This document shows, piece after piece, positions 21,220-61,885 of a stretch of 64,000 nt of DNA. Position 1 is the stretch's first letter; every line of letters starts with the position of its first letter. The notes below the pieces were generated by a model that did not search any database, was not told where the DNA came from, and saw only the letters and a program-made list of their open reading frames with translations. Source of the DNA: Minisyncoccota bacterium (lineage in GTDB: Bacteria; Patescibacteriota; Minisyncoccia; Phycocordibacterales; GWA1-40-21); NCBI GenBank assembly GCA_041663045.1, contig JBAZRH010000001.1:84403-148402 (forward strand), in the 5' to 3' direction. The translations under genes and the position numbers were made by a program.

Positions 21220-21228
21220 TTTTTAAGT

Positions 21229-21262
21229 CCCCGAGCCACTCGCTCGGGGACTTATTTTTTAT
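21229..21262 (+). terminator. Rho-independent terminator after rplU (agtccccgagc-cactc-gctcggggact + TTATTTTTT)
   Basis: 11-bp GC-rich stem followed by a T-run. Confidence 0.8.
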
Positions 21263-31367: not shown

Positions 31368-31382
31368 GACTAACGAAATTTT

Positions 31383-31590
31383 TGCACGGGGTCCTGTCAA
31401 CCTATTCATTTTGAAATGCACGGATATTTTCTTGCTAAAAAATTCCTCGTTCCTTACAGGAACTGTACACCTTTCACATTTTGAGTACAAAACGTTCAAG
31501 GTCTTTCATTTGGGTCCCAACCCAAATTTCAACTCGCGCCAGTCGCGCTCCCAAGGCATTTCAAAATGAACAGGTTGCCACCCCTACACA
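31383..31590 (-). ncRNA. Candidate structured RNA/repeat element, expanded copy (copy C) of a 3-member intergenic element family
   Basis: No plausible ORF. 5' arm (31386-31423) pairs with 3' arm (31549-31586) over about 30 bp. The single arm mismatch becomes a G·U pair only in the minus-strand transcript. It contains the conserved boxes GAGCGCGACTGGCGCGAG and ACGAGGAATTTTTTAGCAAGAAAATATCCGTG shared with the copy at 42.4 kb. Confidence 0.45.
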
Positions 31591-31604
31591 AAAACTTCGT
31601 TAGT

Positions 31605-31632
31605 TAAAAAAACCACCTTGCGGTGGTTTTTT
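31605..31632. terminator. Bidirectional intrinsic terminator (A7-ccaccttgcggtgg-T6) between rplI (+) and rpmA (-)
   Basis: Perfect short GC hairpin flanked by an A-run and a T-run. Confidence 0.8.
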
Positions 31633-31635
31633 GAT

Positions 31636-31914
31636 TTAGGCTAATTTTACATTTACGAGGTTTCTTCTAGTGATAGTAGAATCAAAATTGTTTTTTCTCT
31701 TTGTGGTGTATTCTACAATGCCGTCCTTGAGAGCAAATAAAGTGTGATCTTTACCGACACCGACATTCTTTCCGGCGATAGTGTTTCTACCTTTTTGTCT
31801 CAAGATTATCTGACCGATTTTGGCGATTTCTCCATGGTTAATCTTCACGCCTAAATATCGTGGATTTGAATCTCGCCCATTTCTTGTTGAACCTTCTGCT
31901 TTACGATGTGCCAT
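31636..31914 (-). CDS. rpmA: 50S ribosomal protein L27
   Basis: [24 protein letters not shown] matches the L27 signature. 92 aa. Confidence 0.9.
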
Positions 31915-33751: not shown

Positions 33752-33790
33752 AAAAGGCGGGCGCACAAAGTGCGCCCGCCTTTTATGTTT
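33752..33790 (+). terminator. Rho-independent terminator (ggcgggcgcac-aaag-gtgcgcccgcc + TTTTATGTTTT)
   Basis: 11-bp GC stem followed by a T-rich tract. Confidence 0.8.
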
Positions 33791-33853: not shown

Positions 33854-34345
33854 ATGAAAATCGGAGTTTTAGTTTTATATTTGCGGAAAGGTAAAATCCT
33901 TCTTTGCAAGAAATGGACCGGTGCAAAAATCGGAGCCAATAAATGGAATAGCTATGGTGGCGAGCTTGAAGTCGGTGAAGACTCGGCAGATGCTGGTGTG
34001 AGGGAAACCCATGAGGAGTCAAACTGGGGTCTCAATGTCAAAAAGAGACATCTTGTACCAAAGGGCGAGATAACTTTCTACGATTGGCAAAACACAGCAC
34101 TCTGGTTTGTTTATCTCTTTACCTGCACTGAGTTTGAGGGTGAACCACTGGAGTCAGAAGAAATGAAGACTCCGACATGGTTCTCTCCAGCGGAGATTCC
34201 GACCTTGGATATGCTACCGGCAGACAAGATCTTTATACCGATGCTTATAGCAGGGGATGAGATCAGGGACGGTTGGGTCAGATTCAGCAAAGATATGACG
34301 GCCGTCGAAGATTATCATCTCCCGACCACTCTCATTGCTGTTTGA
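33854..34345 (+). CDS. NUDIX hydrolase
   Basis: Nudix box GGELEVGEDSADAGVRETHEESN. Start set at MKIGV (33854), which has the AAGGGAG SD. The longer upstream ORF extension overlaps the terminator. Confidence 0.8.
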   Translation: MKIGVLVLYLRKGKILLCKKWTGAKIGANKWNSYGGELEVGEDSADAGVRETHEESNWGLNVKKRHLVPKGEITFYDWQNTALWFVYLFTCTEFEGEPLESEEMKTPTWFSPAEIPTLDMLPADKIFIPMLIAGDEIRDGWVRFSKDMTAVEDYHLPTTLIAV

Positions 34346-34363
34346 TTGTCAGTGTGGAAGTTA

Positions 34364-34400
34364 GTGAGCCGACCTGTTGCACGGTCGGCTTTTCTTTTGC
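34364..34400 (+). terminator. Intrinsic terminator after the NUDIX gene (gagccgacc-tgttgcac-ggtcggctt + TTCTTTT)
   Basis: 9-bp stem followed by a T-rich run. Confidence 0.65.
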
Positions 34401-34529
34401 TCCAGTTTGTGTACCCTAATTGGTTGAGGGAAGAGGGCTTATTACATTATATACATGTCGCACAATATATCTTGCCCGCTATATACATGTATAATAAGGC
34501 TGTTTATCTTTTTAACCACTTCCCCCTCT

Positions 34530-34560
34530 GCAAATCAAAAAAGAACCTTTAGTAGGTTCT
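34530..34560. terminator. Bidirectional terminator (AAAAAAGAACC-tactaa-aGGTTCTTTTTT) serving the minus-strand small membrane protein gene
   Basis: Perfect stem flanked by an A-run and a T-run. Confidence 0.7.
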
Positions 34561-34576
34561 TTTTTGATAATAATTA

Positions 34577-34825
34577 TTATTGTAGAAGATCTAATCCATG
34601 CTGGAAAACTTTCCACACTACCCCAACGATGAGTTTATCCCAAATATAAATTATCGGAGCCGCCAAATAATTGTTCCAGAATGTCTTTATGAAGTCCCAC
34701 ATATAGCCTAGATTACCTTGTACTTTATCCCCACTTATAATACCCCCTATATCGAAGCCAAAGTATCCGAGAATGATCAGAGCGATCACTATTAAAATTA
34801 TCATCTTTATTAAACCTTTTTTCAT
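34577..34825 (-). CDS. Small (82-aa) hypothetical membrane protein
   Basis: N-terminal TM helix (MIILIVIALIILGYFGF). Terminator immediately downstream. Confidence 0.45.
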   Translation of the reverse strand: MKKGLIKMIILIVIALIILGYFGFDIGGIISGDKVQGNLGYMWDFIKTFWNNYLAAPIIYIWDKLIVGVVWKVFQHGLDLLQ

Positions 34826-34889
34826 ATGAGATTATATTTAAAATTTCTATTACCCTACAATTATATCACGTTAAAAGCCCTGTGGGTGT

Positions 34890-36158
34890 TTATAAGTAAG
34901 CCAATGGATCAAGATAAGCTCTTATGTCTGCCATCGGCAATATATATGTACCTTTGCAGACAGCACTTTTTTTACTCATTATTTTTACACCCTGTGAGGC
35001 AAATAATCCAAAGTGGAGGTGCGGACCGGTGGAGTAGCCAGTGTTTCCGGAGTATCCTATTATATCTCCCGTAAATATTTGATCACCGGCCTTAACTTTT
35101 ATAAGAGAAAGATGTCCGTATAAGGTCGTTAGGCCATTATTGTGTTTTATGAGAACCCATTTACCATATGAAGCACCAGAACAGACAAGATCCGTGTCAC
35201 CTGTCCCTTCCACAGTGCCACTTAGTGTGGCTTTAACTCTTGTACCAACAGATGCTCTAAAATCTACCCCATTGTGACTTCCTGTCGTGTAGAGCCTGCC
35301 AGAGTCTGATGTCACCCCAAACCTTTGTGTTATATAGATATTATCTAATGGCCAAGACAAAATGCCTTTTCCAGCCGCAGGGATACTATTTGGATCTATA
35401 GCAAATTTTAGCTCTGATTCAAATTGAGCAAGTTCTTTATCAAAAGCATCTGCAAGGGCCTGTTTCTCTGACAGAAGTCTTTTATAGTTGGATTCTTTAT
35501 TTTTTGTTTCGGTAAGGACTTTATTCTTTTCTTTTTTGTTTATTTCTAAGATTGCTTTCTTATCCTCCAGTTCTGATTTTAGAGATAAAAGTTCTTTTTT
35601 CTTGCTTTCATTGTCTTTCTTATCAATACCGAGATCATCCCTAACCTTCTTTGTTTCTATGAGTTTATTTTTTAATTGATTTTGCAATTTATAAATACCC
35701 TCCATTTCATTCCAGAACTCTGAAAGATCTTTATATTTTAAAAGAGTCTCTATTATAGATGAATTATCAGATTCATTTACTTCATTTATCAAAACCTCTA
35801 TAACCACACTGTTTTTGTCTATTTCTGTTTCTTTCTTTCTTATTTCAATACCAAGCCTCTCTATTTCAAGATTTGCAGAGTTTATATTGTTTTCTGTGAG
35901 TTTTATATCTAAGGAAGTTTTCTTTTCGGTGGCTTCAAGAGTCTTTATGGCTTTGGAAAGTGTATCCGCTTGAGTACCGATATCTTTAAGTTGATTTTGA
36001 TACTGGTCTATCTCTTTTTGTAATTGTTCTCTATTCTTACTTGTTTGTTCTATTTTTTGTTTTATTTCATCTATTGACGAAGAATAGCAGATATTACTTA
36101 ATAAAAGCGAAAGCAGAAAGATAAGCGAATATAAAGCTGTCTTTTTTAAGAAAAACAT
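34890..36158 (-). CDS. M23/LytM-family peptidase with an N-terminal coiled-coil (EnvC-like murein hydrolase activator)
   Basis: Signal peptide. Long coiled-coil region. C-terminal LytM domain (GSHNGVDFRASVGTRVKATLSGTV...HLHFGLF). Start at MFFLKK avoids overlap with gltX. Confidence 0.8.
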   Translation of the reverse strand: MFFLKKTALYSLIFLLSLLLSNICYSSSIDEIKQKIEQTSKNREQLQKEIDQYQNQLKDIGTQADTLSKAIKTLEATEKKTSLDIKLTENNINSANLEIERLGIEIRKKETEIDKNSVVIEVLINEVNESDNSSIIETLLKYKDLSEFWNEMEGIYKLQNQLKNKLIETKKVRDDLGIDKKDNESKKKELLSLKSELEDKKAILEINKKEKNKVLTETKNKESNYKRLLSEKQALADAFDKELAQFESELKFAIDPNSIPAAGKGILSWPLDNIYITQRFGVTSDSGRLYTTGSHNGVDFRASVGTRVKATLSGTVEGTGDTDLVCSGASYGKWVLIKHNNGLTTLYGHLSLIKVKAGDQIFTGDIIGYSGNTGYSTGPHLHFGLFASQGVKIMSKKSAVCKGTYILPMADIRAYLDPLAYL

Positions 36159-42363: not shown

Positions 42364-42388
42364 AATTGATTTTGTTTAATGGGTGTAG

Positions 42389-42479
42389 ATGCACTCTTTT
42401 TGGAAACTTGCGAGCGCGACTGGCGCGAGCACGAGGAATTTTTTAGCAAAAAAATATCCGTGTTCCAAAAAGAGTGCAT
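42389..42479 (+). repeat. Structured intergenic element, copy A (scpA-scpB spacer) of a 3-member family
   Basis: 17-bp terminal stem (atgcactctttttggaa / ttccaaaaagagtgcat) enclosing the conserved boxes GCGAGCGCGACTGGCGCGAGC and ACGAGGAATTTTTTAGCAAAAAAATATCCGTG. Confidence 0.5.
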
Positions 42480-42491
42480 CGAAACCCCTAA

Positions 42492-46334: not shown

Positions 46335-46592
46335 ATTTATTTTATTAATCTTAAATTAAATTGCCCTCGCAAAAATCAAACTAAATCGTTTGGTTTTTGC
46401 GAGGGCGAACGAGTTCGCGGTGCCACCTCACTTTGTTCTCACTTGCCCGTTCGGATTTCTTTCCGAAGAAAATTGTTCGGGTTTTCGGGGCTCTACTTGC
46501 TTTTCAGCTTTCTTCCCCAAGCTCCACCGTGTTTGCGGTTTCAATGCTTATCTTGACATTATAATACCTAAATCTAAAGTATGCAATACAGT

Positions 46593-58391: not shown

Positions 58392-59483
58392 CTAGAACCC
58401 CTCCTCTTTCAATTTCTCCACCGCCTCTTTTGCCTCCCTTGAAAGCCTATGCGGAAGCTTAATATTGATTTTTACCAGCAAATCACCCCTTTTTGAGGCG
58501 GAAATAGGCACTCCTTTGCCCCTAATTCGCAAGATTTCGCCGTAGGCGACCCCTTCCGGAATCTTAAGCTCTATATCGCCATCCAAGGTTTTGAGGCTGT
58601 ATTTTGAGCCAAGTAGAGCGTCGGAAATCTTGATGTTTAATTCAGTCACAAGGTTCTTCCCCTCCTTTGAAAACAGTGGGTCAACTTTCACATGAATCTT
58701 GATATAGAGATCACCAGAGATACCACCCTTGAGGGCTTCGCCTCCACCAGATAGGCGGATCACTTGCTCGTCGTCAATGTCTGCTGGGATTTTAATCTCA
58801 AGCTCACTTTCTTTTTTCAATATTCCCGCACCACGACATTCAGCACACTTCTCTCTAGGAACTTTTCCAGAACCACCGCAATTGTCGCAGATTTTTTCTG
58901 TCGCAAAGTTTCCAAAGATGGATCTCTTTGTTTCGCGTACTCTTCCGTGTCCATTGCAAACCGAACATTTTTCCATGCCAGTGCCTCTTTTTGCACCAGT
59001 ACCATCACAAGTATTGCATTTTGAAGTTTTCGTTAGTCGAATCTTCTTCTCGGCGCCAAAGATTGATTCGCTGAAAGAAATTTCCATATCAACAGAAATA
59101 TCCCTTCCTTTTTTCGGTGCACGTCTCGCACCTCCGCCAAAAATGTCTCCAAAGATATCTCCTAAGTCAAAATCAAAACCTTGTCCACCAGCCTGATTTT
59201 GAAAACCGGAAAAATCAAAACCAAAATCGCCAAAGCCACCTTGGCCGAAGCCGCCCGCACCTCTGCCACTGCCGGCAGGTCCTGCGCTTCCGTATGTGTC
59301 GTATTGTTGTCGTTTTGTATCATCGGAAAGTACCGAATAGGCCTCGCTTGCCTCTTTGAATTTTTCCTGATTTCCACCCTTATCCGGATGATGCTCGTGA
59401 GCGAGCTTTCTAAACGCTTTCTTAATGTCTTCTTTGGAAGCGTTTCGTTCAAGGCCTAATGTTTTATAGTAGTCTTTTGACAT
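58392..59483 (-). CDS. dnaJ: Chaperone DnaJ
   Basis: J domain (DYYKTLGL...HPDK). Gly-rich region. Four CxxCxGxG zinc-finger repeats. Confidence 0.9.
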
Positions 59484-59568
59484 TTTTGATTAATTTTAAT
59501 GATTTGACAATTCTTCTGTTATATGATACCCTTTGATTACTGATACGATTCAGAAGGGAGTGTTCAGT

Positions 59569-59760
59569 ATGAAGAATAAAACGATAGTTGTTGTAAGCCC
59601 CGAAGCATATCATAAAGGGATGTTGATTGGTGGAATCTTTGTTCTGGTTGTTGCTATCGTTATCGCAATCATGAACAAAGTTTCGTATCCAATCTACGGC
59701 CCGCTTGGGGTCTTGGCTGGTGTAGTCGGCGCTCATCTTCTTCGCAGGAGATTCAGCTAA
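59569..59760 (+). CDS. Small (63-aa) membrane protein encoded on the opposite strand between dnaK and dnaJ
   Basis: SD GAAGGGAG 8 nt before the ATG. Two hydrophobic helices. Strong terminator downstream. Confidence 0.45.
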   Translation: MKNKTIVVVSPEAYHKGMLIGGIFVLVVAIVIAIMNKVSYPIYGPLGVLAGVVGAHLLRRRFS

Positions 59761-59772
59761 CCATACCAGCTC

Positions 59773-59810
59773 GCCTGTGTCGAGGTCGTCCATGTGGCGA
59801 CCTCGTTTTT
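59773..59810 (+). terminator. Rho-independent terminator (cgaggtcg-tccatgtgg-cgacctcg + TTTTTTTATTT)
   Basis: 8-bp GC stem followed by a T-run. Confidence 0.8.
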
Positions 59811-59885
59811 TTATTTAATTTTTAATTTCCTGGACTCCCGTATTCACGAGAATGACAGAGGAGAAATAAGTAAGCGAGCGAAGTA

Positions 59886-59972
59886 CCAGGCTTTTTGGAG
59901 ACTCTCGGAAGGCGACGGCCTGAGAGGGAGCAAATTTTTAGCGAAAAATTATGCGTGCTCCAAAAAGTCTGG
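59886..59972 (+). repeat. Structured intergenic element, copy B (downstream of dnaK) of the 3-member family
   Basis: 15-bp terminal stem (ccaggctttttggag / ctccaaaaagtctgg, with one G·U in the plus-sense RNA) enclosing a core GAGCAAATTTTTAGCGAAAAATTATGCGTG related to copies A and C. Confidence 0.45.
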
Positions 59973-59986
59973 TATTGAGCGAGCCT

Positions 59987-61885
59987 CTATTTCTTCTCTT
60001 CCCCACCCTTCTCCTTAAACTCCGCGTCCTTCACATTATCTTCTTTCTTCTCTGTTGCCCCTTGCTGGCCGGCTTGATCTTTCTGCGCTTTTGCCATCGC
60101 TTCACCTATCTTTTGCATCTCGGCTGAAAGGGCTTCTGTCGCTGTTTTTATCGCAGCTGAATCCGTGCCGTTTTTGGCAGTCTTCAAAGCGGAAATCTTA
60201 TCTTCCACACCTTTTATAATTTCTGGTGTAATCTTTGCACCATTGTCTTTGATAGCTTTTTCTGCAGTGTAGATCATCTGGTCGGCAATATTTTTGACCT
60301 CCACTTCCTCTTTCTTTTTCTTATCTTCATCGGCGTGAAGCTCAGCTTCTTTTTTCATCTTTTCAATATCTTCTTTCTTGAGCCCTGAACTTGCCTCGAT
60401 TCTGATACTCTGCTCTTTATTTGTCGTTTTGTCTTTTGCTTTTACATTGAGTATTCCATTTGCATCGATATCAAAGGCGACCTCAACTTGTGGCATACCT
60501 CTTGGCGCAGGTGGTATTCCGTCTAGGATAAATTTACCGAGGCTTTTGTTGTCGCTCGCCATCGGTCTTTCACCTTGGACGATATGGATTTCTACAGAAG
60601 TCTGATTGTCTGCTGCTGTCGAGAATATCTGGCTTCTTGTTGTAGGGATTGTCGTATTCTTTTCAACCAAATGTGTTGCAACTCCGCCCATTGTTTCAAT
60701 ACCGAGTGATAGCGGAATAACATCAAGCAAGAGAACATCTTTGACATCTCCCCTCAAGATTCCTCCTTGTACTGCGGCACCGGCGGCGACGACCTCATCT
60801 GGATTCACAGACATATTCGGCTCTTTACCAAACAAATCTTTTACAGCTTTTACAATAGCTGGCATTCTTGTCTGACCTCCAACCATTATTATTTCTTGAA
60901 TTTCATTCATCTTGAATGGTGAAGCAGAAAGTGCTCTTTTTGTAATTTCTATCGATCTCTCAATCAAGTCCTTGATCAGGTTTTCCAAAGTCGCCCTTGA
61001 GAGTTTGATAAGCAAATGCTTTGGTCCGTCTGTGCCTGAAGTGACGAACGGAATATTGATTTCTGATTCGACAGCCGTTGAAAGCTCTATTTTGGCTTTT
61101 TCTGCAGCTTCGTCGAGCCTCTGAAGTGCAAGTGCATCTTTTCTCAAATCAATACCGTTTTCTTTTTGGAATTGTTCTGCCATCCAGTCAACGATTCTCT
61201 TGTCTATATCGCGACCACCGAGGTGTGAGTCCCCGTCTGTTGAGCGGACTTCGACGACGCTGTCGCCTATTTCAAGGATCGAGATATCGAATGTTCCACC
61301 TCCAAAGTCGTATACAGCGATTTTTTCATTTTTATTTTTATTGAGACCATATGCAAGAGCTGCGGCTGTCGGCTCATTTATTATTCTCAATACATTAAGC
61401 CCGGCAATCTGCCCAGCATCTTTTGTAGCTTGTCTTTGTGAGTCGTTGAAATATGCGGGAACGGTGATGACTGCGTCGGTGATTTTCTCACCGAGGCGAG
61501 CTTCTGCGTCATTCTTGAGTTTCTGCAAAATCATAGCCGAGATCTCCTCTGGCCTATAATTTTTTCCTGCCATGGCGACTTCTACTCCGCCGTTTGAGGC
61601 TTTCAAGACATCAAATGAAACGGATGCCTTATCTTTCTGCACTCCAGCATCGTCAAACTGATGACCCATAAAACGTTTTATCTGAAAGATTGTGTTTTTT
61701 GGATTTGTGACGGCTTGGCGTCTTGCAAGAAGACCAACAAGTCTTTCACCTGTCTTTGTCGTTGCGACTATAGACGGCGTTGTCCTCGCACCCTCTGCGT
61801 TTTCTAAGATTTTTGGAGCATTACCTTCCATAACCGCAACGGCTGAAAAGGTTGTCCCTAAGTCTATACCGATTATTTTACTCAT
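59987..61885 (-). CDS. dnaK: Chaperone DnaK (Hsp70)
   Basis: N-terminus [35 protein letters not shown]. Substrate-binding domain and acidic C-tail. Confidence 0.95.

What the first reader, a model, noticed from the sequence alone, without database searches (positions are those of the whole stretch)
42389..42479. Family of related structured intergenic elements with a conserved 33-nt core and covarying terminal stems (copies at 31.4, 42.4 and 59.9 kb)
Three intergenic loci share a near-identical core, ACGAGGAATTTTTTAGCAA[A/G]AAAATATCCGTG. Copy A (42389-42479, + sense) and copy C (31383-31590, - sense) differ by 1 of 33 nt. Copy B (59886-59972, + sense) is about 75% identical. A and C also share the box GAGCGCGACTGGCGCGAG. 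Each copy is closed by a long terminal stem whose sequence differs between copies but whose pairing is preserved. The arms are atgcactctttttggaa/ttccaaaaagagtgcat in A, ccaggctttttggag/ctccaaaaagtctgg in B, and caacctattcattttgaaatgc/gcatttcaaaatgaacaggttg in C. The single arm mismatches in B and C resolve to G·U pairs only in the strand that also presents the core in the same sense. This is a consistent orientation signal, and it favours a functional RNA over a DNA-level TIR. Compensatory stems around a conserved interior suggest an sRNA or RNA motif family rather than decaying MITE copies, although a mobile-element origin cannot be excluded. The ORF-track peptides overlapping these loci all contain EEFFSKKISV or FLAKxYxCSKKS only because they translate the shared core.
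Basis: seen in the sequence. Interest (0 to 1): 0.6.

Follow-up and report, generated by a model that had tools for sequence, protein, structure and literature searches.

The report
Three-way-junction hairpin repeat of Patescibacteria
The three loci are copies of an undescribed, multi-copy hairpin element of ultrasmall (CPR/Paceibacteria) bacteria, with a highly conserved three-stem core, outer stems that change sequence but stay paired, and a position just after stop codons, mostly on the opposite strand.

Summary
The window holds exactly three copies: A 42381-42487 (+), B 59858-59998 (+) and C 31375-31598 (-).

A degenerate core pattern hit at least 120 loci in the genome collection. Nearly all are Patescibacteria MAGs, and several MAGs carry more than 12 copies.

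Eighty-one distinct copies support a three-way junction:
- P1, a long outer stem whose sequence differs between copies.
- P2, with an invariant tandem G·A and a GAC(U)G loop.
- P3, AU-rich with an AGCA loop.

95% of cells are paired, against 74% in shuffles, and 21 of 29 pairs show double changes. G·T outnumbers A·C 61 to 19, and G·A outnumbers C·T 43 to 6.

The element is not a free-standing sRNA gene. It has no promoter or terminator of its own. It abuts stop codons antisense to the gene (56 against 12). Copies A and B are missing from the same spacers in relatives with 79-96% identical flanking proteins.

There is no match in Rfam, phage or plasmid collections, or the searched literature.

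Best reading: a MITE-like element recognised by structure, propagating through a folded single strand. Whether that strand is RNA or ssDNA is unresolved.

The parts
42381..42487 (+). Copy A, the whole hairpin element. It lies between the scpA stop (42492, - strand) and the scpB start (42363, - strand).
   Evidence: RNA MFE is -53.1 kcal/mol, z=-8.05. The CM score is 101.5 bits. The flanking genes were identified with Pfam. The element is absent from the scpA-scpB spacer (11-35 nt) of four relatives and replaced by an unrelated 182-nt spacer in a fifth.
42388..42405 (+). Copy A, P1 5' arm. It pairs with 42463-42480.
42409..42431 (+). Copy A, P2: UGC / tandem G·A-A·G / GCGC stem / GACUG loop.
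   Evidence: columns 17-42 of alignment A1
42435..42459 (+). Copy A, P3: GGAAUUUUUU-AGCA-AAAAAAU(A)UCC. It has an AGCA loop and one bulged A.
42463..42480 (+). Copy A, P1 3' arm. It is preceded by the junction GUG at 42460-42462.
59858..59998 (+). Copy B, the whole element including the outer helix and a GA-rich internal loop. Its 3' end overlaps the dnaK stop codon (59987-59989, - strand).
   Evidence: RNA MFE is -67.4 kcal/mol, z=-6.0. The CM score is 85.7 bits. The element is absent downstream of dnaK in relatives with 87-96% DnaK identity.
59882..59976 (+). Copy B, from P1 to P1. P1 5' arm 59882-59900, P2 59902-59926, P3 59930-59954, GUG 59955-59957, P1 3' arm 59958-59976.
59871..59881 (+). 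Copy B, 5' half of the internal loop (UAAGCGAGCGA). Opposite 59977-59985 (GAGCGAGCC) it can form G-C pairs interleaved with tandem G·A pairs.
   Evidence: Read. The same GAGCGA/GAGCG flanks recur in the Yonathbacteria-type copies.
31375..31598 (-). Copy C, the whole element, a five-helix variant. It lies between the rplI stop (31367, + strand) and the rpmA terminator hairpin (31612-31637).
   Evidence: RNA MFE is -95.3 kcal/mol, z=-10.0. The CM score is 40.3 bits. The genes were identified and the terminator.
31449..31532 (-). Copy C, an extra domain of three hairpins inserted between P2 (31533-31552) and P3 (31422-31446). It is shared with locus L007, with compensated changes (GUUCC/GGAAC against GUCCC/GGGAC).
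31398..31418 (-). Copy C, P1 3' arm. It pairs with 31557-31577 and includes one G·U.

Best explanation
The element is a non-autonomous, MITE-like interspersed repeat specific to Patescibacteria (Paceibacteria/Parcubacteria). The whole hairpin, about 95-220 nt, is the copied unit.

What is conserved is a fold rather than terminal sequences. A long outer stem of any sequence presents a three-way junction whose unpaired nucleotides, tandem G·A pairs and two loops (GAC(U)G and AGCA) are nearly invariant. I infer that some trans-acting machinery recognises this fold on one single strand, the 'core-sense' strand. That strand would be ssDNA or, less likely, an RNA copy. This recognition is what keeps all three helices paired and the core constant while the arms drift by compensatory change.

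New copies land in the few nucleotides between a stop codon and the next gene's translation signals. They survive mostly when antisense to local transcription. There the mRNA carries only the weaker reverse-complement hairpin.

Shown: the fold, the folding strand, multi-copy status, recent gain, the placement and orientation bias, and the absence of a TSD or TIR.

Inferred: structure-specific mobilisation, the nature of the intermediate, and selection against sense insertions.
For: Fold:
- 95.2% of cells are paired, against 73.5% in shuffles and 40-58% when partners are slid.
- 21 of 29 pairs show double changes.
- The covariation score is 0.551 against 0.137. RNAalifold agrees.
- Divergent subtypes add more covariation in P3 and P2a, while GA/GA, the AGC loop and GUR stay fixed.

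Strand:
- G·T 61 against A·C 19; G·A 43 against C·T 6.
- The sign is the same whether the neighbouring gene is antisense (34/5, 15/0) or sense (8/1, 7/0).
- The core-sense fold is more stable in 87 of 96 copies.

Repeat and mobility:
- About 150 copies by CM search.
- Eight copies of one ~131-nt unit in MAG CAZFHL.
- Copy A is missing from the scpA-scpB spacer of 5 relatives, and copy B from the dnaK-dnaJ spacer of relatives.
- Occupied and empty orthologous sites: L073 against L022/L079/L109, and L044 against L057.

Orientation:
- 56 antisense against 12 sense at stop codons (p=6e-8).
- Orientation flips with gene direction within 2 kb.
- Pairs between convergent genes are always <-E E->.

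Core-sense RNA is unlikely at the window's three sites. A is antisense inside an operon. B and C each have a terminator-like hairpin just upstream in the core-sense direction. No promoter signal is enriched.
Against: - No transposase, HUH, recombinase or RT gene was found in the window or recurrently in 120 loci. The mobilising factor is therefore hypothetical.
- There is no TSD and no defined cleavage site.
- Some copies sit at the same site in several species with unrelated P1 sequences (dnaK end in 4 species; L070/L074/L027). In L048/L073/L099 the P1 is alignable with compensated changes. That pattern could mean host-level selection at the locus rather than selfish turnover.
- The orientation follows transcription, not replication. 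This is not what IS200/IS605-type ssDNA transposition predicts, so the bias must be attributed to selection, which was not tested.
- Repeated tandem G·A motifs and modular helix insertions look more like a structured RNA than a DNA site.
Confidence: 0.45

Rival explanations
1. A host-serving RNA element that works in the core-sense orientation. It sits at a gene's 3' end facing outward. It would act on polymerases or transcripts that enter the gene from the wrong direction (convergent, read-through or spurious antisense transcription). It might do this by binding a conserved protein through the three-way junction, or by being cut.
For: - The folding strand is antisense to the abutting gene in 56 of 68 cases.
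- Each of two convergent genes has its own outward-facing copy.
- The wobble asymmetry is strongest in exactly these copies (34 against 5).
- The same gene ends (dnaK, rplI, a PilB-like gene) carry copies in several species.
- Compensated changes occur in the orthologous copies L048/L073/L099.
- Tandem G·A pairs and conserved loops are typical of protein-binding RNA.
Against: - There is no U-tract after the hairpin and no promoter feeding it.
- In the window, B and C already have a terminator upstream in that direction, and A lies inside an operon.
- Close relatives do without copies A and B.
- About 30% of copies in co-directional gene arrays are in sense (40 against 17).
Confidence: 0.2
2. 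A REP/BIME-like mRNA element that works in the mRNA itself, that is, as the reverse complement in most copies. The long hairpin right after the stop codon would protect the upstream cistron from 3' exonucleases or create an RNase III site between cistrons. The conserved core would be only a relic of the repeat's origin.
For: - The element sits 3-10 nt after stop codons and inside operons such as scpA-scpB and dnaK-dnaJ.
- Copy C lies between the rplI stop and the terminator, so it is part of the rplI 3' UTR.
- P1 plus the outer helices give 18-45 bp of near-perfect duplex in either sense.
- In L044 the element occupies the place of a plain terminator hairpin present in L057.
Against: - A hairpin function does not explain a ~56-nt core that is nearly invariant across many candidate phyla.
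- It does not explain mismatches that are wobble or G·A only on the non-mRNA strand.
- It does not explain the orientation bias itself.
- In the mRNA sense the conserved tandem G·A pairs become U·C/C·U mismatches.
Confidence: 0.15
3. An independent small-RNA gene family, the first reader's preferred reading, giving a discrete ~90-nt transcript from each locus.
For: There is strong covariation, a defined folding strand, and very favourable folding energies (z from -6 to -10).
Against: - There are no promoter-like sites at A, B or C, and no enrichment upstream in 98 copies.
- No terminator follows the element.
- It usually fills the whole spacer between two co-directional genes on the other strand.
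- Its presence varies between close relatives.
Confidence: 0.05
4. A self-cleaving ribozyme, or another catalytic RNA, carried by a repeat. Sense insertions would be harmful because they cut the host mRNA.
For: - The architecture is a three-way junction with a conserved core, variable stems and tandem G·A next to a helix.
- The element is multi-copy.
- It shows a bias against the sense orientation inside operons.
Against: - No Rfam ribozyme family matches, even at E<=5-10.
- The positions that would correspond to hammerhead G5/A6 are a covarying base pair here (U17:A42 to A:U).
- Sense copies are tolerated between co-directional genes (L009, L058, L076).
Confidence: 0.05

Closest known systems
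REP/BIME elements and their RAYT (TnpA_REP) enzymes
   Same: Both are short palindromic repeats in intergenic regions, concentrated at gene 3' ends and often in inverted pairs. REPs are thought to be recognised as a folded single strand by an HUH enzyme (from my own knowledge). They also form mRNA hairpins.
   Different: REPs are 20-40-nt simple hairpins with a conserved GTAG head and a stem sequence conserved within a genome. This element is 95-220 nt, has a three-way-junction apex that is the conserved part, and has stems that differ between subfamilies. No RAYT-like gene was seen.
Integron attC sites
   Same: In attC the stem sequence is free but the structure is conserved, the substrate is one folded strand, and the site sits directly after the stop codon of the upstream ORF with the folding (bottom) strand antisense to that ORF (established knowledge of attC). 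All of these parallel.
   Different: attC conserves the base of the stem (R''/R' boxes RYYYAAC/GTTRRRY, extrahelical bases) and varies the apex. Here it is the reverse. The neighbouring genes are housekeeping genes, not cassettes. There are no arrays and no intI gene.
Bacterial MITEs that fold as long RNA hairpins (Correia/NEMIS, ERIC/IRU, RUP, BOX)
   Same: Both are 100-150-nt non-coding interspersed repeats that are polymorphic between relatives, co-transcribed with neighbouring genes, and form long hairpins.
   Different: Those families have conserved terminal inverted repeats and usually a target duplication (TA for Correia). Here the termini vary, the interior is conserved, and no TSD is detectable.
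IS200/IS605-derived palindrome-associated elements (PATEs)
   Same: Neither has a TIR or a TSD, activity is strand-specific, and recognition is of DNA hairpins rather than terminal sequences.
   Different: Those elements have separate subterminal hairpins at the two ends and a conserved target tetranucleotide, and their orientation follows replication. Here there is one hairpin with a branched apex, no conserved flank, and an orientation that follows transcription.
TIGR-Tas stem-loop arrays (PMC12045711)
   Same: Both are found in CPR bacteria. Both have variable palindromic stems flanking a short conserved module with G·A-type (box C/D) pairing.
   Different: TIGR units carry two variable 8-12-nt spacers, stand in tandem arrays, and lie next to a Nop-domain Tas gene. 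Here the interior is constant, the copies are dispersed singly, and no Tas-like gene is nearby.

Membership tests
Any Rfam 15 family | A covariance-model match at or near the gathering score | tested here: not met
   There were 0 hits at gathering score in the whole window. At E<=5-10 over A, B and C there were only chance hits far below threshold, such as plant miRNA precursors and terminator-containing sRNAs.
Classical MITE | Terminal inverted repeats whose sequence is conserved among copies | tested here: not met
   The outer 3 pairs of the 12-bp P1 window use all four Watson-Crick types in comparable numbers. The arms differ completely between subfamilies. The arms are shared only within a recent subfamily.
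Classical MITE | A target-site duplication of fixed length | tested here: not met
   The longest direct repeat between the flanks has the same distribution as in mismatched flank pairs. The exceptions are a 19-nt repeat at L096 and a possible TAAT at copy A.
Classical MITE | Multi-copy, with presence/absence polymorphism between relatives | tested here: met
REP/RAYT | A conserved 5' GTAG-type head plus a short imperfect palindrome, with a RAYT gene flanked by REPs | tested here: not met
   There is no conserved tetranucleotide at the hairpin base (position profile). No Y1/HUH gene is among the recurrent ORF families of the 120 loci or the 30 window ORFs scanned. Whole genomes were not available.
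Integron attC | R''/R' core sites (RYYYAAC ... GTTRRRY) at the base of the stem | tested here: not met
   The bases of A, B and C read GGGTGTAG.../...CGAAACCC, GAGGAGAAA.../...TTTCTTCTC and GAAGTTTTTG.../...CAAAAATTTC. No consensus appears in the flank profiles.
Integron attC | Arrays of cassettes next to an intI integrase | tested here: not met
   Copies are single or in pairs, lie between housekeeping genes, and no integrase was found.
Integron attC | One strand folds, and it is antisense to the upstream ORF | tested here: met
   This is a resemblance in behaviour only.
Hammerhead ribozyme | A CUGANGA ... GAAA ... UH catalytic core around a three-way junction | tested here: not met
   The corresponding strand reads CUUGCGA ... 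GAGCA. The U and G at the G5/A6 positions are base-paired and covary (columns 17:42 and 18:41). There is no Rfam hammerhead hit.
Kink-turn | A three-nucleotide bulge followed by tandem G·A/A·G between a C stem and an NC stem | tested here: not met
   The tandem G·A (columns 20·39 and 21·38) is flanked by Watson-Crick pairs on both sides with no bulge in type-1 copies. Type-2 copies have an asymmetric GCAA/GA loop of unclear geometry.
Intrinsic terminator | A G+C-rich hairpin followed within 0-2 nt by a U-tract | tested here: not met
   There is no T-run after the 3' arm in either sense at A, B or C. The right-flank profile shows GAG and then the reverse-complemented stop codon, not a T-tract.
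TIGR-Tas stem-loop unit | Two variable spacers between box C and box D, tandem arrays, and an adjacent Tas (Nop-domain) gene | tested here: not met
   The interior is invariant apart from a 3-4-bp stem, copies are dispersed, and no such gene is present.

The most novel reading that the evidence does not exclude
The element defines a new class of mobile or genome-organising element in CPR bacteria. It would be recognised purely as a folded three-way junction on one single strand, with free-sequence stems and no TIR or TSD. That strand is the template strand of the upstream gene. It could therefore be ssDNA, or a cDNA-like copy of the gene's 3' UTR comparable to retron msDNA made from many loci. 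It would be handled by a structure-specific enzyme not yet linked to it.
Probability: 0.2. Interest if true: 0.85.

Novelty: new variant of a known kind. Interest (0 to 1): 0.66.

Why it matters
Patescibacteria make up a large share of bacterial diversity and have tiny, tightly packed genomes. Almost nothing is known about their non-coding DNA.

This element has about 56 nucleotides that are nearly identical across MAGs labelled Nomura-, Yonath-, Taylor-, Zambryski-, Lloyd-, Vogel-, Kaiser- and Moraniibacteria. Some genomes carry a dozen or more copies, and copies sit inside essential operons.

If the element is mobile, it shows a mode of recognition (fold, not ends) that standard MITE and IS finders would miss. 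It also implies an unidentified enzyme active in these reduced genomes.

If it serves the host, it is a lineage-wide gene-end signal.

Either way it supplies a well-supported covariance model (three helices, tandem G·A). The model can be used to annotate these genomes, to mark insertion polymorphisms in populations, and to guide RNA-seq or biochemical tests.

Tried and rejected
- Known RNA family: rejected. Rfam gave nothing at gathering or permissive thresholds.
- Phage or plasmid origin: rejected. There were no hits in IMG/VR by pattern or in the phage and plasmid collections by blastn.
- Literature: no paper contains the core string. CPR and repeat keyword searches found nothing relevant. 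The gLM intergenic-feature preprint does not mention CPR. TIGR-Tas stem-loop arrays were read and excluded.
- More copies in the window: none.
- Target-site duplication: none in general.
- Core inserted into a pre-existing hairpin or terminator: rejected for copy A, because relatives have 11-35-nt spacers without a hairpin. It is not supported at L044/L057, where the two hairpins are unrelated.
- Copy-specific palindromic flanks outside a shared unit: not better than mismatched flank pairs (cis 8.75 against trans 8.09).
- Own promoter: the best -10 matches are equal on all four flank/strand combinations, and there are no promoter-like sites at A, B or C.
- Orientation set by replication: rejected, because orientation flips with gene direction within 2 kb. 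The window's GC skew simply tracks gene orientation.
- Associated protein gene: clustering 819 ORFs from 120 loci gave only housekeeping families, and window ORFs are housekeeping.
- Sibling copies carrying copy A's P1: 0 hits in the metagenome collection.
- Hammerhead, kink-turn, attC and REP membership: each fails a defining feature (see the membership table).
Full report
**1. The observation**

The three loci read as the first-stage reader described.
- The 32-nt core with one R position matches exactly at 42431-42462 (+) and 31419-31450 (-). No shuffle of the window produced a match.
- Copy B is the same module with 7 of 32 differences.
- A and C also share the GAGCGCGACTGGCGCGAG box.
- A covariance model built later from relatives and run over the whole window without filters finds these three copies and nothing else. 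Scores are 101.5, 85.7 and 40.3 bits. Everything at 14 bits or below is an ordinary terminator hairpin.

The elements are longer than reported.
- Folding gives A 42381-42487, B 59858-59998 and C 31375-31598.
- Energies lie 6 to 10 standard deviations below shuffled sequence.
- C is an expanded version with three extra hairpins (31449-31532) between the second and third helix.

**2. The family**

The window is from a Candidatus Paceibacterota MAG. Its ScpA and DnaK are 100% identical to proteins on a 428,695-bp contig.

- Apart from records labelled only 'uncultured bacterium' or 'bacterium', and one contig binned as Gammaproteobacteria, all are Patescibacteria.
- Named groups are Nomura-, Yonath-, Taylor-, Zambryski-, Lloyd-, Vogel-, Kaiser- and Moraniibacteria, Minisyncoccia and Paceibacterota, plus TPA bins labelled Saccharibacteria.
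- Single MAGs contribute many loci: 14 from CAZFHL and 11 from bin-744.
- The model finds about 150 copies in these loci, including some 30 divergent ones the pattern had missed.

Nothing similar was found elsewhere.
- IMG/VR: no hits.
- Phage and plasmid collections: no hits.
- Rfam 15, even at permissive thresholds: no real hits.
- The paper library: nothing relevant.

**3. Anatomy**

Eighty-one distinct copies, each trimmed to 12 nt of arm on either side, align cleanly (A1). RNAalifold and explicit pair counting agree on a three-way junction.
- **P1** is the outer stem. It is 9-34 bp long, median about 20. Its sequence is unrelated between subfamilies, except for three conserved U:A pairs near the junction.
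- **J1/2** is (A/C/G)CU.
- **P2** is U-G-(C), followed by a tandem G·A/A·G, then a 3-4-bp stem of free sequence and a GACG or GACUG loop.
- **J2/3** is C-GA.
- **P3** is G[G/C/A]AA[U/A]UUUUU-AGCA-AAAAA[A/U]U(A)U[C/G/U]C.
- **J3/1** is GUG.

Pairing statistics:

| Measure | Observed | Control |
|---|---|---|
| Cells paired | 95.2% | 73.5% when 3' partners are shuffled; 40-58% when slid by 1-3 columns |
| Pairs with changes on both sides | 21 of 29 | - |
| Covariation score | 0.551 | 0.137 (0 of 500 shuffles reach the observed value) |

P1 was located by its pairing, so its numbers are partly circular. P2 and P3 were not.

Divergent subtypes extend the evidence.
- P3 becomes UUUCC/GGAAA, UUCCC/GGGAA or AAAAAUC/GAUUUUU.
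- P2a becomes UUUU/AAAA.
- The GA/GA, the AGC of the P3 loop and GUR stay fixed.

Many copies continue outward through a purine-rich internal loop. GCGAGCGA opposite GAGCGAGC can form G-C pairs interleaved with tandem G·A pairs. Beyond this loop lies a further helix.

**4. Which strand folds**

With scoring that treats G·T and A·C alike, 90 distinct P1 stems contain 61 G·T and 19 A·C (p=3e-6). They contain 43 G·A/A·G and 6 C·T/T·C.

The asymmetry does not depend on the neighbouring gene.

| Copy class | G·T / A·C | G·A / C·T |
|---|---|---|
| Antisense to the abutting gene | 34 / 5 | 15 / 0 |
| Sense to the abutting gene | 8 / 1 | 7 / 0 |

Whole-element RNA energies favour the core-sense strand in 87 of 96 copies, by 5.1 kcal/mol on average. 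P1 limits for this test came from a GU-tolerant search. The conserved tandem G·A pairs would be U·C/C·U on the other strand.

These data cannot tell RNA from ssDNA, because G·T and sheared G·A are tolerated in both (established nucleic-acid chemistry).

**5. Context**

In the window (Pfam):
- A lies between scpA and scpB.
- B lies directly after dnaK, with its outer helix overlapping the stop codon.
- C lies after rplI, convergent with rpmA.
- In all three the element's 3' side faces the stop codon of a gene on the other strand.

Across the loci, with crude ORF calls:
- 56 copies abut (within 60 nt, often 3-10 nt) the stop codon of an opposite-strand gene, against 12 for a same-strand gene (p=6e-8).
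- In co-directional gene arrays the ratio is 40 to 17.
- Orientation switches with gene direction within 2 kb (L021, L013, L044).
- All four adjacent pairs between convergent genes are arranged <-E E->.
- The bias is therefore tied to transcription, not replication. The window's skew change at 34-36 kb merely follows gene orientation.

The element has no expression signals of its own.
- No promoter-like signal is enriched on either side, and none is found at A, B or C.
- No U-tract follows the hairpin.
- At B a + strand terminator-like hairpin (59781-59805) lies 53 nt upstream.
- At C the rpmA terminator (31612-31637) lies 13 nt upstream.
- A is antisense within an operon.
- Core-sense transcription of the three window copies is therefore unlikely (inference). 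All three should be transcribed mainly as the reverse complement within scpA-scpB, dnaK and rplI mRNAs.

**6. Gain and loss**

Relatives with 79-90% identical ScpA have scpA-scpB spacers of 11-35 nt with no hairpin. One has an unrelated 182-nt spacer. The window has 128 nt.

Relatives with 87-96% identical DnaK have dnaK-dnaJ spacers of 8-341 nt without the element. The window has 503 nt. The model finds no copy in any of these loci. A and B are therefore recent gains.

Comparison suggests that copy A's whole 107-nt hairpin entered 3 nt after the TGA. TAAT is present on both sides, which may be chance.

Other occupied and empty pairs:
- L073/L048/L099 against L022/L079/L109.
- L044 against L057, where a plain terminator hairpin stands in the same place.
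- L093 against L041.

In MAG CAZFHL eight copies share a ~131-nt unit including P1 and the outer helices. So the copied unit is the whole hairpin.

Flanking direct repeats are no longer than in mismatched controls, apart from a 19-nt duplication of the dnaK end at one copy in L096.

No transposase, recombinase or RT recurs near the elements.

**7. Points that do not fit a simple selfish-repeat story**

- The same gene ends carry copies in several species: dnaK in four, rplI in two, and a PilB-like ATPase gene in three.
- At the PilB-like site the three P1 stems are alignable and differ by compensated changes. The 5' arm there includes the gene's last codons and stop codon. At other shared sites (L070/L074/L027) the stems are unrelated, which looks like repeated insertion.
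- Among the otherwise near-identical CAZFHL copies, the 3-4-bp distal stem of P2 differs in a compensated way: CUU/AAG, UUU/AAA, CUC/GAG and CGCG/CGCG, with or without the loop U. Short-patch conversion between copies, or fast GC-to-AT decay with selection for pairing, could explain this. Neither was tested.

**8. Interpretation**

The fold, the folding strand, the multi-copy dispersed distribution, the recent insertions and the orientation bias are all shown.

I think the most likely synthesis (0.45) is a non-autonomous element that is recognised and copied as a folded single strand. The three-way junction would be the recognition module and the stem a structural requirement. That would explain why the interior is conserved and the ends are free, the opposite of a TIR-based MITE.

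The antisense bias is then best explained by selection. Inside operons the native fold in the mRNA would be more stable, or would be recognised, whereas the reverse complement is a weaker, anonymous hairpin.

Because core-sense transcription looks unlikely at the window's sites, I lean to ssDNA rather than RNA as the folded form, but only weakly. Repeated tandem G·A motifs and modular helix insertions are more typical of RNA.

The rivals are:
- a host gene-end RNA facing incoming antisense transcription (0.2);
- a REP-like mRNA hairpin function in the mRNA sense (0.15);
- an independent sRNA (0.05);
- a ribozyme (0.05).

**9. Comparison with known systems**

In behaviour the closest are integron attC sites and REP/RAYT.
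- attC shares the free stem sequence, a folded single strand antisense to the upstream ORF, and a position at the stop codon.
- REP/RAYT shares gene-end palindromes, often paired, handled as folded ssDNA.

The element fails the defining features of both. It has no R boxes, cassette arrays or intI. It has no GTAG head or RAYT gene. It equally fails those of classical MITEs, hammerheads, kink-turns, intrinsic terminators and TIGR-Tas units (see the membership table).

I therefore file it as a new variant of the known kind 'structured interspersed intergenic repeat', not as a member of any named family.

**10. Limits**

- Gene calls in the loci are longest-ORF heuristics.
- Copies from related genomes are not independent.
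- The family was ascertained with a pattern that fixes 24 core positions, so core conservation is overstated. The model-based hits show more diversity.
- Whole genomes, expression data and protein co-occurrence were not available.

Noticed in passing
window 59484-59986: The dnaK-dnaJ spacer is 503 nt here, against 8-16 nt in relatives L127 and L128. Besides copy B it holds a + strand terminator-like hairpin with a T-run (59781-59805) and an ORF (59464-59793, -) with no Pfam match that looks hydrophobic.
   Followed up: partly
L096 4778-4859 and flanks: This copy, downstream of dnaK, is flanked by a 19-nt direct repeat (TTTTATCGAAGCGGTTCAT) that duplicates the 3' end of dnaK. It is the only long flanking duplication among 116 copies.
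   Followed up: partly
L014 5954-6173; L021 2505-2698; L066 1232-1429; L075 2596-2890: Two elements lie side by side between convergent genes. They are always arranged 5'-ends-inward (<-E E->), so each is antisense to its nearer gene.
   Followed up: partly
L009, L023, L047, L052, L072, L080, L094, L118 (MAG CAZFHL): Eight copies share a ~131-nt unit almost base for base. They differ in the 3-4-bp distal stem of P2 by compensated changes and by a one-base loop indel. This is a local hot spot of change or conversion.
   Followed up: partly
L022 ~5560, L048, L073, L079 ~2770, L099, L109 ~5050: A conserved intergenic motif AATCTCTAA(A/G)CAAT(A/C)CTTT lies downstream of a PilB/GspE-like ATPase gene in six species, whether or not the element is present.
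   Followed up: no
window 31612-31637, 33752-33784, 21224-21254, 46363-46406: These are ordinary G+C-rich hairpins, and the two inspected (31612-31637, 33752-33784) carry A/T tracts (bidirectional terminator type). They show that this genome's normal terminators differ in kind from the AT-rich stems of the element.
   Followed up: partly
window ~34000-36000: GC and AT skew change sign where gene orientation switches from mostly + to mostly -. Within the window the skew tracks coding strand locally, so it cannot be used to place the origin or terminus.
   Followed up: partly
L123 2230-2411: In a Taylorbacteria relative the scpA-scpB spacer is 182 nt. It contains short AGTATAAG-type repeats and a different hairpin (GTCATTCCCGCGGAGGCGGGAATCC). 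scpB is called as two ORFs, which suggests a frameshift or pseudogene.
   Followed up: no
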